Assembly (NCBI GenBank): GCA_964016885.1
Contig: OZ024742.1
Coordinates: 362,142,001-362,206,000 of the forward strand
Source of the DNA: Eledone cirrhosa
Lineage: Eukaryota
Reading direction: 5' to 3'
Length of the DNA stretch: 64,000 bases
The notes under the pieces: model-generated
Told to the model about the DNA's origin: nothing
Database searches by the model: none
The model's input: the letters and a program-made list of their open reading frames with translations, nothing else
Shown: positions 2,654 to 14,447 of the stretch, one piece after another
How the letters are laid out: each line of letters opens with the position of its first letter
How positions within the stretch are numbered: position 1 is the stretch's first letter
Made by a program: the position numbers and the translations under genes

Positions 2654-3104
2654 AAATTTCATTTCTCACTCTTAGTACAGCTGTTACTTAAATATAAGTA
2701 TGTATACGTACATACATATATGTATACAGACGTACAGTAGTATGTTTATATATATATACATACATGCACACATATATATATGTACGTATGGATTCACCGA
2801 ACATTTATTATAATGCTCGGTATGTTTGTAAACAAACATCCCGAATTAAGCCGTACAGTGTCTAGCAACCATCGTTGCTCATTTGTTCAACACTAACAAA
2901 TGAACGCTGTACTAGTTTCAAGCTTATTAGCTATCGTCAGCAACGTATACCTTCCTGCCAGATGTTTGAACGTCTGAAAGTATATACTTTCCATATGCAT
3001 ATTAACGGCTGAGCAGCCTAATTTGCATATCGAGTGAGTTAATCGGCCGGGGTACCGAAAACGACAAACGGAAAAATGAAACGAAATTTCATTTCTCACT
3101 CTTA
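2654..3104 (-). mobile_element. Retrozyme-like element family B, one ~430-bp monomer with terminal redundancy
   Basis: Begins and ends with AAATTTCATTTCTCACTCTTA (2654 and 3084); no ORF; contains an HHR; TA flanks. Confidence 0.8.
2904..2946 (-). ncRNA. Type I hammerhead ribozyme (family B)
   Basis: Minus strand: ACGTTG-CTGACGA-TAGCTAATAAGCTT-GAAA-CTAG-TA-CAGCGT. Confidence 0.88.
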
Positions 3105-4159
3105 TATATATATATATATATATAATTTAATACAATAAGAGAGATAGCTTTAAGCTAAACTCCGACTGGTAACCATCTCACTCAACAAACAGTAGGTTAT
3201 ACGTTAGTATAAACCCAATTTAAGTGTTTGGGGTGCTAACTATATATATTTTGTGGAAAGCCAGTTGTATTATTTTATATGAGATATAATTAAAGTTAAA
3301 ATATATCTCTCTTTCCAAACAATTGTTTCATTATAAGTTTTCTACAAGTTTGCAGAATGTTTCCAGTTTATGTAGAAGCCTAACATATTTTCATGTAAGA
3401 AAATATTTAGGTGGGCACTTATAAATCGTCAGTGGAAGTCCATTAAACTTTGATATAAGAAAAAATTCCTTACCACAGTTAATTTTCGTGTCCGCTAAGT
3501 TGTTCCTTCACGCATCGAATGACCGCCAAGTTTGAAATTCCAGCAGTCTTTTGACTGAGGAAGTATCATAGCGTCACGAAGCGGAAAAGGGAGACAACCA
3601 CGATTCACGAGAAAAGTAAAATAATATACACGTGGGTTAATTAGTTTTTTCAAAAACATTATCAATCCTGCGTGTTAAGAACTCAATTAATTTAAAAAAA
3701 ATAAATGTATGCGTGTATTAATTACACACGCATATAGATATTTTCTTAGGCTAAAAACTGAGAAATGATACCTAAAAACAATCACATCTCATAACTGTAA
3801 TAAATACGGAAAGTTACGCTTTAAAAGGCATTTGGGAATGTAAATCTCTGGCCAATATATATATATATATATATAAATGGAATAGAATGAGCGAAATTTC
3901 ATTTCTCACTCTTAGTACGGCACTTACTTAAATGTAAGTATGTATGTATGTATACGTACATACATATATGTATACAGACGTACAGTAGTATGTATATATA
4001 TACATACATGCACACATATATATATATATGCACGTATCGGTTTACCGAACATTTATTATAATGCTCGGTTTGTTTGTTTGTAAACAAACAAACAGCCCGA
4101 ATTACGCCGTACAGTGTTTAGGCAACCACGTCACTTTTTTGTTCAACGCTGACACAGGA

Positions 4160-4202
4160 ACGATGTACTAGTTTCAAGCTTATTAGCTATCGTCAGCATA
4201 GT
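4160..4202 (-). ncRNA. Type I hammerhead ribozyme (family B)
   Basis: ACTATG-CTGACGA-TAGCTAATAAGCTT-GAAA-CTAG-TA-CATCGT. Confidence 0.85.
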
Positions 4203-4613
4203 ATACCTTCCTGCCAGATGGTTGAACGTCTGAAAGTATATACTTTCCTTATGCATATTAACGGCTGAGCTGCCTAATTTGCATATCGAGTGAGTTTAGT
4301 CGGCTGGGCGCACCGAAAACGATAAATGGAATATACGTGCATATATATATGTGTGCATGTATGTATATATATACATACTACTGTACGTCTGTATACATAT
4401 ATGTATGTACGTATACATACATACATACTTACATTTAAGTAACTGCCATACTAAGAGTGAGAAATGAAATTTCGTTTCATTCTATTCCATTTATAGTTTT
4501 CGGTGCGCCCAGTCAATTAAACTCACTCGATATGCAAATTAGGCTGCTCAGCCGTTAATATGCATAAAGAAAGTATATACTTTCAGACGTTCAACCATCT
4601 GGCAGGAAGGTAT

Positions 4614-4655
4614 ACGATGCTGACGATAGCTAATAAGCTTGAAACTAGTACATGT
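4614..4655 (+). ncRNA. Type I hammerhead ribozyme (family B)
   Basis: ACGATG-CTGACGA-TAGCTAATAAGCTT-GAAA-CTAG-TA-CATGT. Confidence 0.85.
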
Positions 4656-5340
4656 TTCCTGTGTCAGTGTTAAACAAAAAGCTGACGTGGTTGCCTAAAC
4701 ACTGTACGGCGTAGTTCGGGCTGTTTGTTTGTTTATAAACAAACAAACCAAGCATTATAATAAATGTTCGGTAAACCGATACGTGCATATATATATGTGT
4801 GCATGTATGTATATATATATATACATACTACTGTACGTCTGTACACATATATGTATGTACGTATACATACATACATACTTATACATATATATATATATAT
4901 ATATATATATATATATATATATATATATATATATATATATATATATATATATATATATATATATATATATATATATATATATATATATATATATATATAT
5001 ATATATATATATATATGTATATATATATATATATATATATATGTATGTATATATGTATGTATGTATATATGTATTATGTATATGTTTGTGTATATATACA
5101 TATAGAGTTGAACAATTATAACAAATGAAACAGCTAAATTTGAATTATCCATATATCGAGGAAACTGGATATAACCGAGCTTCTATCATCTTTACCAGGA
5201 TGTATATGGGAAAACCTATCACCATATATATATATATATATATATATATATATATATATATATCTATACATACATATGATCCAAGGCTCTGATACCATCA
5301 ACACTATAAACACAGAGCTGGCATATCTAAGAACTGACTA

Positions 5341-5396
5341 ACTGCCTGATGAGGTCATAGCCATTCAATGGCTATCATCGAAATATATATAGCAGT
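5341..5396 (+). ncRNA. Type I hammerhead ribozyme (family C)
   Basis: ACTGC-CTGATGA-GGTCATAGCCATTCAATGGCTATCATC-GAAA-TATATA-TA-GCAGT; perfect stem I; homolog at 16223-16277. Confidence 0.88.
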
Positions 5397-11542: not shown

Positions 11543-11600
11543 ACACCTGATGAAGTCACCGAGTTCTTACGCAACTTGGACACTGAAATGTGCATAGTGT
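11543..11600 (+). ncRNA. Type I hammerhead ribozyme (family D)
   Basis: ACAC-CTGATGA-AGT..ACT-GAAA-TGTGCA-TA-GTGT. Confidence 0.8.
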
Positions 11601-11812
11601 TTGCAGAAATAAATACTTAAGGAAATTTAACATATTTGGCCTCCTGTCATTTCCCTTTATATATATATACTATAAGAATAAGGGAACAAGTATTCAGTGT
11701 TGCATCATAACATATTTAATAACATATTACATATGTTTCTCCCATACTATGCTTCCTATATATTTTCGTCCCCGATTCACACATTGAATCGGAGACGCGA
11801 ACATATAGGATG

Positions 11813-11902
11813 CATATCTGATGATCTTTCGATTACAGAGTCAGGTTCGATCTATAATAGGTCTTTCCTCGAGGTGATCGATAATGAAACATATGTAATA
11901 TG
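11813..11902 (+). ncRNA. Type I hammerhead ribozyme (family E), extended stem II
   Basis: CATAT-CTGATGA-TCTTTCGATTAC..GTGATCGATAAT-GAAA-CATATG-TA-ATATG. Confidence 0.75.
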
Positions 11903-12079
11903 TTATGATGCAACACTGAATCCTTATTTCTTTATTCTTATAGTATTATACTCTGCTCTGCGCGAGCACCGAGTGCTCAACCGGCATACTGCATACGGAC
12001 GCATTTATTCTTGCAACTATATACAACTATATATATATATATATATATATATATATATATATATATATATATATATATA

Positions 12080-13680
12080 AATTAATAAAATAATGAATAA
12101 ACAAAGTAACAGTTCCTTATATTAAAAAAATTCATCATTTTACGATCGTTTCTAGGATATATATGTGTTAGAGTTGGTATGCATATTCTATAGATCTATG
12201 TACAATATTTATACAAACTATCAGAGGGAATATACATACCTACACATATATATATGCTGTCTTCAGAAATAATGATATTTGTTTATTGAAAAAAACAAAG
12301 ATTCAATACAATAGGTCTGTTTGGGAACAGGTTTTGAATTGACCAATAGAGAGATAGTGAGGGTCAAGATAGTAATATAGTAGTAGAAGAACCTTAAATT
12401 ATGGGTAGAGGAAGGTAGATTTCAGTTTTGGATGGAAAAGAATATTATGAATGAAGGATTATTTTAGGGAAGAAATAGGTCATATGCTGACCTCAGAAAT
12501 AATTTTATTTGTTCATTGAATAAAACCAACAAAGATCTAATATATTCTGTCTGTTTGGTAAGAGGTTTAGAATTAACCAATAGAAAGTTAATAATTGGCC
12601 AAATGGTAAAATAGTAGTAATTGAAGCTTATTTTAGGGGTGAAAATAGGTCAGGTGGTCAGTAAAAGGTATACAAGCGGTTGCTGTTATAAAATAGTAAT
12701 GCCAATACAAATATCTAAGGTGACTAAAGTTTTAAGATAAGAATGTTAGTGAAAAAAATACATCTATGAAAAGAATATAAATTAATTTAATTGATGGGTA
12801 TATTTATATTGATAAAATTATACTAATACATATAGATATGATAAATAAGAGTTAGATGCAGTTGAAAAGTGGTGTTAAAGATGAGGGGAAATTAAGAGAA
12901 TATAAAAATAATATATATATATATATATACTTATATATATATATATACACACATATATACACATACACACACACACATACACACATATATATATATATAT
13001 ATATACACACACACACACACACATATATATATATATATATATATATATATATATATACGTGCATATATACATACATACACATATATACACACACACACAC
13101 ACACTTACATATACATATAATTATTGGGGGGGGGAATTAAATTTATTAGTGAGTAATAATAAATATATATAGTTTTCATGGAACATAGAGTCATAACCTG
13201 AAGTTAAAGCATTATATATGTTTACTTAATGGTATCAGTTTTAGGAAATGATATTTGTAATAAGGAAAGCAAAATGATGTAGTTCATCAGTAGTAGAATA
13301 TTAATTATAGGTTAACTAAATTAAAAATAATTTATATATTAATTTCTAAAGTGTATATTAATTAGGTTTATAATATTTAAAGGTTTTTCTCAGTTTATGA
13401 TTACACGATATTATTAATTCCTGTCGCTTAATTAATAGGATATCCTTAGATTTCATTATTTCAAAAAGTTCTTGGGAACATAATCTACATTCATATCTAC
13501 TATTTTGACAAGGGGTGGCCCTTTTGAGCACACTCCAGGTCAGGTCATATTCTATATTCCTCTTTCTATAACTATTAATTATTTCAGCTAGAGATGTTGT
13601 ATTAGCTAGTGCGGCATTTTTAAAACTATGTTTGTGGGTATTAAATCTTACTTTAAACCTTTAAATATTATAAACGCCCA
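12080..13680 (-). mobile_element. 5'-truncated Penelope-like element (GIY-YIG C-terminal remnant ~13380-13680 + 3' UTR/pLTR)
   Basis: Manual minus-strand translation RFKVRFNTHKHSF..SLAEII..TWSVL..CRLCSQE..LLIKRQELIISCNH matches the other PLE endonuclease ends; HHR at the 3' end. Confidence 0.8.
12134..12273 (-). ncRNA. Type I hammerhead ribozyme (family F) with ~100-nt stem II
   Basis: ATTATTT-CTGAAGA-CAG..CTA-GAAA-CGATCG-TA-AAATGAT; homolog at 45330-45463. Confidence 0.78.
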
Positions 13681-13684
13681 CTTT

Positions 13685-14447
13685 GTGGTTGCCTTAACAC
13701 CGTACGGCATAAATTCAGGCTGTCAGTTTGTTTACAAACGGACAAAGCGGGCGTTATAATAAGCGTCCGCTAAACTGATACGTACATATATGTATGTGTA
13801 CCTGTATGTATGTATGTATATATATATATATATATATATATATATATATATATATATATATATATATATATATATATGCATGCTACTGTACGTCTGTATA
13901 CATATATGTATGTACGTATACATACATACTTACATTTAAGTAAGTGCCGTACTAAGAGTGAGAAATGAAATTTCGTTTTCATTTTATTACAACTTATCGT
14001 TTTCGGTGCGTCTGGCCAACTGAACTCACTCGATATGCAAATTAGGCTGCTCAGCCGTTAATTTTCATAAGGAAAGTATATACTTTCGAACGTTCAACCA
14101 TCTGGCAGAAGGCTATACGGTGCTGATTATAGCTAGCGGGCTTGAAACTGGTACATCGTTCCTGTGTCAGTGTTGAACAAAAAGGTGACGTGGTTGCCTT
14201 AACACCGAACGGCATAAATTCAGGCTGTCAGTTTATTTACAAACGGACAAAGCGGGCGTTATAATAAGCGTCCGCTAAACTGATACGTACATATATGTAT
14301 GTGTACCTGTATGTATATATATATATATATATATATATATATATATATATATATATATATATATATATATATATATATATATATATGCATGCTACTGTAC
14401 GTCTGTATACATATATGTATGTACGTATACATACATACTTACATTTA
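13685..14447 (+). mobile_element. Retrozyme-like family B, ~1.5 tandem monomers (HHR at 14117-14159 mutated: CTGATTA)
   Basis: GTGGTTGCC start recurs at 14190; same monomer as 2654/3872 in another phase. Confidence 0.8.

What the first reader, a model, noticed from the sequence alone, without database searches (positions are those of the whole stretch)
2654..14447. Second retrozyme family: dispersed copies are circular permutations of one ~430-450-bp HHR monomer
Seen: four segments (2654-3104 -, 3872-4333 -, 4333-4881 +, 13685-14447 +) contain the same monomer. They start at different points and run past one unit (redundancy of ~21 bp, ~12 bp, ~100 bp and ~half a unit). Stem I varies while mostly keeping pairing (ACGTTG/CAGCGT, ACGGTG/CATCGT). 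The 3872-4881 insertion is an inverted dimer, a small version of the 23-27-kb array. Inference: permuted, terminally redundant copies are the expected footprint of a circular or concatemeric RNA template.
Basis: partly seen in the sequence, partly recalled or inferred. Interest (0 to 1): 0.82.

Follow-up and report, generated by a model that had tools for sequence, protein, structure and literature searches.

The report
Penelope-inserted hammerhead retrozyme, fixed ends
These segments are copies of a roughly 440-base non-coding repeat, present about ten thousand times in this genome, that carries a predicted self-cutting RNA motif and whose copies stop at two fixed points next to TA repeats, often as mirror-image pairs with one end of each kind, likely because a Penelope-type jumping-gene enzyme copied one continuous, probably circular, RNA from both sides of a DNA break.

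Summary
The four segments are real copies of one 420-446-bp hammerhead-bearing monomer (9,768 exact ribozyme cores genome-wide). They are three insertions, because 3872-4881 is one two-armed insertion.

The copies are not random circular permutations. In a sample picked only on the ribozyme, 106 of 127 3' ends fall at two sites about 60 nt apart (S1, S2), mostly joined to (TA)n, while 5' ends are scattered. Of 38 classifiable inverted pairs not picked on their ends, 36 have one S1 and one S2 arm. Paired arms share five times more variants than copies at other loci. Copying runs through the ribozyme cut site without extra stops (6 versus 4.2 expected), and 62 of 127 arms exceed one unit.

This is the published Penelope footprint (5' truncation, inverted arm, tail at one end, TA target) on a non-LTR retrozyme. 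A continuous multi-unit template is supported. A circle rather than an uncleaved concatemer is likely but not shown. No partner Penelope element was found, and cleavage and expression are untested. The scan noted the same architecture earlier elsewhere in this genome.

The parts
2654..3104 (-). Copy A: single arm, subfamily 1, monomer position 248 round to 268 (1.05 units), (TA)n on both sides; 3' end irregular (inside the tail, not at S1 or S2)
   Evidence: 96.5% to subfamily-1 consensus
2904..2946 (-). Type I hammerhead motif of A: fully paired 6-bp stem I, CUGANGA core, stem II with a U-U base, GAAA, 1-bp stem III with palindromic loop; predicted cut between 2910 and 2909
   Evidence: cleavage not tested; no Rfam hit
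3856..3872 (.). (TA)n target repeat joined to the S2 end of arm B
3872..4333 (-). Arm B of the two-armed insertion: subfamily 5, 5' at 279, 3' at S2 (289-290, tail present), 1.03 units
   Evidence: 97.4%
4160..4202 (-). Hammerhead motif of B (one stem I mismatch)
4333..4881 (+). Arm C of the same insertion: subfamily 5, 5' at 129, 3' at S1 (227, no tail), 1.22 units; head-to-head junction with B at 4333 (1-base overlap)
   Evidence: 96.2%
4432..4493 (+). The roughly 60-nt stretch between S1 and S2 (the tail), here read internally in arm C; holds a predicted hairpin
   Evidence: fold of 4420-4500, z -2.1
4614..4656 (+). Hammerhead motif of C (two stem I mismatches); predicted cut after 4650 defines monomer position 1
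   Evidence: no Rfam hammerhead hit
4882..5040 (.). (TA)n target repeat joined to the S1 end of arm C
13685..14447 (+). Copy D: single arm of a more divergent subfamily, 5' at 37, 3' at S1 (233) followed by a TA run; about 1.4 units with expanded internal TA runs
14117..14159 (+). Hammerhead remnant of D; core G8 replaced, predicted inactive

Best explanation
The segments are insertions of an abundant non-coding 420-446-bp repeat with a type I hammerhead motif and two fixed 3' ends beside (TA)n, likely written into the genome by a Penelope-type (RT plus GIY-YIG) enzyme that primes from a cut TA repeat at two internal sites of one continuous, probably circular, RNA. Shown: the monomer, the copy number, the two end sites, the one-of-each rule in inverted pairs, shared variants between paired arms, and read-through across the ribozyme site. 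Inferred steps: (1) copies with two or more ribozymes are transcribed and self-cut as dimeric hammerheads into unit RNA that is ligated into a circle; (2) a PLE protein, probably a dimer, binds near the tail and cuts both strands of a (TA)n target; (3) one strand is primed at S2 and the other at S1, 60 nt upstream, using 1-4 nt of TA complementarity; (4) each cDNA runs back along the template for a random distance, past the cut site and often past a full lap; (5) the two cDNAs are joined head to head, or one is joined to the flank to give a single arm.
For: Copy number: 9,768 exact cores, control 0. Fixed ends: 106 of 127 arms end in two windows covering 47 of 446 positions, and 71 of those 106 run straight into a TA repeat. 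Genome-wide exact end-plus-TA motifs: S2 2,283 against 2,634 read-through, one S1 form 3,874. The four other TTA sites each have 1 end within 3 nt among 306 arms. Pair rule: 36 of 38 classifiable pairs not picked on their ends are S1+S2 (P 2.7e-9); 63 of 65 overall. The one true S1+S1 pair has arms of two subfamilies. One template: 46 pairs share 47 non-consensus variants against 9.4 +/- 3.4 expected (maximum 21 in 300 resamplings), rare non-CpG 11 against 1.5. Discordance at 18 family-polymorphic sites is 6.6% between arms and 7% between units of an arm, against 41% between loci and 11% within a subfamily. Continuity: 6 stops against 4.2 expected at the cut site among about 141 arms at risk; arms up to 4.6 units. 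Inner junctions are not inherited: 4 near-matches among 93 pairs, about 5 expected by my estimate. Stem I covaries: 74 A-U, 48 U-G, 26 G-U, 2 U-U among 210 motifs. PLE machinery is present: 150 scored GIY-YIG matches; RT and GIY-YIG in one frame in 3 of 5 ORFs scanned. Same footprint published for PLEs (PMC8557442, PMC3846280, PMC11167929).
Against: Cleavage, transcription and circularity were not observed. No PLE with this terminal sequence was found among 35 GIY-YIG loci. Three of 15 multi-unit arms switch haplotype between units (L018, L063, L102), which one circle cannot give without template switching or later recombination. Rare shared variants within 1-2-unit arms (4 against 0.9, null maximum 6) are not significant. 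One pair (L186) supplies 11 of the 47 shared variants. There is no excess of stops after one lap or at the other arm's start in the full analysis. Rare variants show no A-to-G strand bias (94 versus 94). Long arrays exist that could yield linear multimer templates. In the one PLE studied in vitro, uncut RNA is the main substrate (PMC11167929). Stem I covariation reflects a few subfamily-level events, not 210 independent ones. 28 of 93 pairs have at least one outer end elsewhere.
Confidence: 0.6

Rival explanations
1. Same Penelope-type double priming, but the template is an uncleaved linear multimer transcribed from long tandem arrays. The ribozyme is then incidental to transposition and no circle is needed.
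For: Arrays of at least 6.5-20 kb exist (L243-L247). Three of 15 multi-unit arms are mixed in haplotype. Ribozyme mutants did not affect insertion by the anole PLE in vitro (PMC11167929). All end and pair statistics fit this model equally.
Against: The long arrays seen are heterogeneous higher-order repeats, whereas 12 of 15 multi-unit arms are uniform in haplotype. Only 12 of 127 arms hold two cut sites, and inner junctions are not passed on, so ordinary copies are not the templates. The ribozyme core is exact in 9,768 places and stem I pairing is kept across subfamilies. Consensus monomers fold strongly as circles, though TA repeats inflate this.
Confidence: 0.28
2. The copies are 3'-terminal (pLTR) fragments of a long coding PLE whose terminal repeat is tandemly multiplied; there is no independent monomeric RNA.
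For: The footprint is exactly that of PLE termini. Retrozymes are related to pLTRs (10.64898/2026.07.22.740005). The genome holds many PLE-like elements.
Against: Arms continue into further monomer units up to 4.6 units. The shared 5' flanks flagged among 120 unpaired arms were, in the seven loci opened, further monomer sequence or unique DNA; the rest were not inspected. None of 35 GIY-YIG loci carries the monomer as its terminus; two hold separately inserted copies.
Confidence: 0.06
3. Random circular permutation: a circle is opened or primed anywhere, so copies have no fixed end.
For: Copy A begins and ends at unusual points; 21 of 127 arms end elsewhere.
Against: 106 of 127 3' ends lie in 10.5% of the unit, and the pair rule has P 2.7e-9.
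Confidence: 0.02
4. DNA-level origin: a satellite or foldback element spread by recombination or extrachromosomal DNA circles, with the two fixed ends acting as terminal inverted repeats.
For: Half the loci are inverted repeats; long arrays show DNA-level higher-order duplication; no RNA-editing scar was found.
Against: Strict polarity (fixed 3', random 5' relative to the ribozyme strand), unequal outer ends, all-different inner junctions and single-arm copies match target-primed reverse transcription, not a TIR transposon.
Confidence: 0.04

Closest known systems
Metazoan non-LTR retrozymes (Cervera and de la Pena 2020, PMC7229834, parts 2-4 of 6 read; Li, Clavereau and Pollet 2026, 10.64898/2026.07.22.740005, parts 1-3 of 5 read, supplements not seen)
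   Same: Non-coding, AT-rich unit of 150-450 bp with a type I hammerhead, present as monomers, partial tandems and long arrays in thousands of copies; predicted highly self-paired circle; co-occurs with PLEs. The ribozyme combines two features described for axolotl motifs: 1-bp stem III with palindromic tetraloop, and U-U at the base of stem II.
   Different: Most copies here are 0.5-1.5 units, not full tandems. The parts read report no fixed 3' ends, two-armed insertions or (TA)n targeting for retrozymes, and propose rather than show PLE-driven copying of a circle. Circular RNA and cleavage are shown there, not here.
EN+ Penelope-like elements, insertion anatomy (Craig et al. 2021, PMC8557442, 12 passages read; Arkhipova et al. 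2013, PMC3846280, 11 passages read)
   Same: 5' truncation, partial tandems, an inverted 5'-truncated arm head to head, a tail often present at one end only, (TA)n targets, microhomology at 5' joints. Non-autonomous head-to-tail PLE derivatives are described (Chlamys, MRC1).
   Different: No ORF; tail about 60 nt rather than 30-40. The one-tail rule is nearly strict here (63 of 65 classifiable pairs), and paired arms are shown to share variants.
Poseidon PLE of the green anole in vitro (Frangieh et al. 2024, PMC11167929, parts 1-2 of 4 read)
   Same: Both target strands are cut and extended at AT-rich DNA; reverse transcription starts internally at two adjacent sites that define the tail; the protein is a predicted dimer; the start lies downstream of a hammerhead.
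   Different: There the start site is not homologous to the target and no strand difference in start site was seen. Here both sites end in TTA matching the TA target, and the two arms almost always use different sites.
L1 twin priming (recalled from memory, no call)
   Same: Two primers from one target break give a head-to-head inversion with short microhomology.
   Different: In L1 the two arms copy non-overlapping parts of one linear RNA; here the arms overlap widely in monomer coordinates and each can exceed one unit.

Membership tests
non-LTR retrozyme | Short (150-450 bp, up to about 1 kb) non-coding repeat unit, low GC, no LTR/PBS/PPT organisation | tested here: met
   420-446-bp consensus units; no ORF of 150 aa or more over the four segments
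non-LTR retrozyme | Type I hammerhead in each unit (core, stems, cleavage triplet) | tested here: met
   Core and stems in A-C, broken in D; stem I pairing kept across subfamilies; Rfam models do not hit
non-LTR retrozyme | Tandem copies with two or more ribozymes | tested here: met
   12 of 127 arms hold two or more cut sites; long arrays in L242-L247; none of the four window arms does
non-LTR retrozyme | Self-cleavage of the transcript | not testable with these tools
   Needs a cleavage assay on dimeric transcripts
non-LTR retrozyme | Unit-length linear and circular RNA in cells | not testable with these tools
   No RNA run was offered by the run search
non-LTR retrozyme | Highly self-paired predicted circle | tested here: met
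   Circular MFE -141 to -147 kcal/mol against -89 to -100 (sd 5-6) for 15 dinucleotide shuffles each; inflated by TA-rich palindromes
PLE-mobilised element | Fixed 3' end with optional tail, variable 5' truncation | tested here: met
   106 of 127 arms at S1 or S2; near-constant 5' stop rate
PLE-mobilised element | Inverted 5'-truncated arm, tail at one end only | tested here: met
   36 of 81 loci have an inverted pair; 63 of 65 classifiable pairs are S1+S2
PLE-mobilised element | AT-rich or (TA)n target preference | tested here: met
   71 of 106 S1/S2 ends run into a TA repeat
PLE-mobilised element | Terminal sequence shared with an autonomous PLE in the same genome | tested here: inconclusive
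   None in 35 of 10,597 GIY-YIG candidates examined
PLE-mobilised element | Target-site duplication | not tested
   Flanks are mostly (TA)n, where a duplication cannot be read
autonomous PLE | ORF with RT and GIY-YIG endonuclease | tested here: not met
   No ORF in the monomer; the four RT-bearing regions of the window are LINE-like or fragmentary, with no GIY-YIG hit

The most novel reading that the evidence does not exclude
One PLE dimer loads on a single circular retrozyme RNA, cuts both strands of a TA repeat, and its two subunits start at two different preset sites 60 nt apart and roll round the same circle. The PLE 'tail at one end' and inverted arm would then be the product of obligatory asymmetric double priming, and these thousands of insertions would be a genomic record of rolling-circle reverse transcription in an animal.
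Probability: 0.4. Interest if true: 0.75.

Novelty: new member of a known kind. Interest (0 to 1): 0.5.

Why it matters
How Penelope-like elements make tandem and inverted insertions with a one-sided tail, and whether retrozyme circles are really their templates, are both stated as open in the papers read (PMC8557442, PMC7229834, 10.64898/2026.07.22.740005). This family gives defined reagents for a direct test: a 446-nt RNA with two mapped start sites, a known target, and a quantitative prediction that opposite strands use different sites on the same molecule. The element itself is an ordinary kind. The value lies in the end statistics, which I did not find reported for retrozymes in six literature searches (open-access library only, five papers read in part).

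Tried and rejected
The first genomic sample (331-base query) forces copies longer than one unit, so it was not used for length statistics; a ribozyme-only sample and an S2-only sample were added.

An apparent 17% within-arm discordance was a coordinate-mapping error at subfamily indels; it was corrected to 7%.

An excess of 5' stops at the ribozyme cut (P 0.05), at S1 for S2-primed arms (P 0.026) and near one full lap did not hold in the left-truncated analysis of 255 arms and is rejected.

RNA-editing scars (a lead from an earlier scan note) were not found among rare variants. Rfam gave no hammerhead hit for A or C; the listed part of the whole-window scan (150 of 239 rows) showed hammerhead hits only for the 27.9-31.6-kb family. 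Isolated ribozyme folds were no better than shuffles, as expected for a motif with a 1-bp stem III. The partner-PLE search in 35 loci found nothing. A search of earlier findings by sequence returned nothing.

Rows dropped: 7 of 90 S2-selected ends could not be mapped (five where the alignment ran through an inversion, two very short arms); arms touching a locus edge or duplicated between overlapping loci were removed (350 to 306); low-complexity columns were masked in all variant counts.
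Full report
OBSERVATION. The four segments are copies of one monomer. I call them A (2654-3104, -), B (3872-4333, -), C (4333-4881, +) and D (13685-14447, +). The period in C is 446 bp, and I number the monomer from the base after the predicted hammerhead cut at window 4650. The ribozyme is a type I hammerhead by motif: 6-bp stem I, CUGANGA core, short stem II with a U-U base, GAAA, and a one-pair stem III capped by a palindromic loop. Only A has it intact; B and C have stem I mismatches and D lacks core G8. 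Rfam does not detect it in A or C.

THE FAMILY. The window lies in a 3.0-Gb genome; earlier scan notes call it a cephalopod, which I did not test. The 32-base core occurs exactly 9,768 times, with 0 matches for the reversed control. I examined 206 loci: 30 best matches to a 331-base query, 86 covering the first 100 ribozyme matches on one chromosome and 90 picked on one end motif. They gave 306 distinct arms. Five subfamilies of 420-446 bp, 92-97% alike, were resolved; copies lie a median 2-4% from their consensus. D belongs to a further, more divergent group. One stem I pair changes with the subfamily and stays paired: 74 A-U, 48 U-G and 26 G-U against 2 U-U among 210 motifs. These are a few events, not 210.

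ENDS ARE NOT FREELY PERMUTED. In the sample picked only on the ribozyme, 50 of 127 arms end near position 227-233 (S1) and 56 near 289 (S2); 71 of these 106 run directly into a TA repeat. Both sites end in TTA, but the four other TTA sites of the unit each have one end nearby, so microhomology alone does not choose them. Genome-wide, the exact S2-plus-TA motif occurs 2,283 times against 2,634 read-through copies, and one S1-plus-TA form 3,874 times. The 5' ends are spread over the whole unit at a nearly constant stop rate of 3.4 per kb; two 20-nt bins are high, one of them the internal TA run, where single arms meet the target or the boundary is ambiguous. In the window, B ends at S2, C and D at S1, and A is an exception.

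TWO-ARMED INSERTIONS. Of 81 ribozyme-picked loci, 36 hold a head-to-head pair like B+C. Of 93 pairs, 63 are S1+S2, 1 is S1+S1, 1 is S2+S2 (a spurious 23-base piece) and 28 have an end elsewhere. Among pairs not picked on their ends, 36 of 38 classifiable ones are mixed (P 2.7e-9). The single true exception joins two subfamilies. Inner junctions overlap by 1-9 bases in 45, are blunt in 13, carry an insert in 25 and overlap more in 10; they are not shared between loci beyond chance. Paired arms share 47 non-consensus variants in 6,682 columns against 9.4 +/- 3.4 for same-subfamily arms of other loci; 36 remain without the largest contributor, and the null maximum is 21. At 18 polymorphic sites they differ at 6.6%, against 41% between loci and 11% within a subfamily. 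Both arms therefore come from the same RNA or the same source locus; conversion between arms cannot be excluded.

TEMPLATE. Of 74 S2-picked arms, 38 cross the ribozyme cut site. Stops there are 6 against 4.2 expected among about 141 arms at risk. Of 127 arms, 62 exceed one unit and 8 exceed two. A cut linear monomer is thus not the main template. Units within an arm are uniform in 12 of 15 multi-unit arms and share more variants than expected (19 against 4.4, and 38 against 6.1), as rolling-circle copying predicts. Uniform source arrays or later homogenisation would give the same, three arms switch haplotype, and long arrays exist. I put the circle at about two to one over the linear multimer.

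MOTOR. The anatomy matches Penelope-like elements as described in PMC8557442 and PMC3846280 (passages): 5' truncation, partial tandems, inverted 5' arm, tail at one end, (TA)n targets. PMC11167929 (parts 1-2 of 4) shows a PLE protein cutting and extending both target strands and starting at two internal RNA sites that define the tail. The genome has 10,597 GIY-YIG candidates, of which 150 were scored and all passed; three of five long ORFs scanned hold RT and GIY-YIG. None of 35 such loci has this monomer as its terminus, so the partner is unidentified. The RT ORFs in the window carry no GIY-YIG hit; several have an AP-endonuclease domain and look like LINEs.

SUPPORT FROM NEIGHBOURS. Two other hammerhead families in this window follow the same rule. 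The 310-bp inverted array has a right arm ending 20-28 nt beyond the left. The element at 27.6 kb, 60% identical to this monomer over 357 columns (E 5e-17), has a right arm about 72 nt longer than its left.

KNOWN AND NEW. It meets the testable features of non-LTR retrozymes (PMC7229834, parts 2-4 of 6). The PLE origin of such elements is argued in 10.64898/2026.07.22.740005 (parts 1-3 of 5; supplements not seen and may bear on end structure). I file it as a new member of a known kind. The near-strict one-of-each rule and the shared-template evidence were not in the parts read or evident from six search listings. Earlier notes of this scan (opened after my reading was recorded) describe the same two-armed architecture for a 422-nt and a 310-nt unit elsewhere in this genome; they are unchecked and are not counted as support. 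Interest 0.5.

Noticed in passing
window 23263-27385: 310-bp hammerhead array in two head-to-head arms, 99-100% identical units; the right arm ends 20-28 nt beyond the left, both at (TA)n, the same one-tail rule. Its ribozyme region is 71-72% alike over about 71 nt to hammerhead motifs in GIY-YIG loci L230 and L238, a lead to its partner PLE.
   Followed up: partly
window 27595-28212, 29475-30092, about 31290-31907: Three near-identical copies of one two-armed insertion of a sister retrozyme (60% identical to this monomer, weak Rfam HH9 hits below cut-off); same inner junction in all three, so a local tandem duplication together with its TA flanks.
   Followed up: partly
window 5346 (+) and 16272 (-): Two related hammerhead-like motifs of another family, with an AT-palindromic stem III.
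   Followed up: no
window 6206-11101, 47289-49380, 49499-61020, 61674-63998: LINE-like retrotransposon ORFs (RT, in several with AP endonuclease and zinc-binding domains); 49.5-61 kb looks like two copies in tandem, with weak methyl-CpG-binding-domain hits in the upstream ORFs.
   Followed up: no
window 15231-15803: RT fragment without an endonuclease hit.
   Followed up: no
L244-L246 (G000:C1:70056000-70076750): At least 20 kb of this monomer arranged as a higher-order repeat, closed by a short inverted arm ending at S1: a two-armed insertion whose one arm appears to have been amplified later.
   Followed up: partly
window 1158-1257, 20733-20838, 21716-21871: Perfect or near-perfect palindromes (inverted repeats) picked up as spurious miRNA matches.
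   Followed up: no
L222:3808-6622 (-), L223:1488-4020 (+), L224:775-4063 (+): Long uninterrupted PLE-like ORFs (843-1095 aa), candidates for recently active elements.
   Followed up: partly
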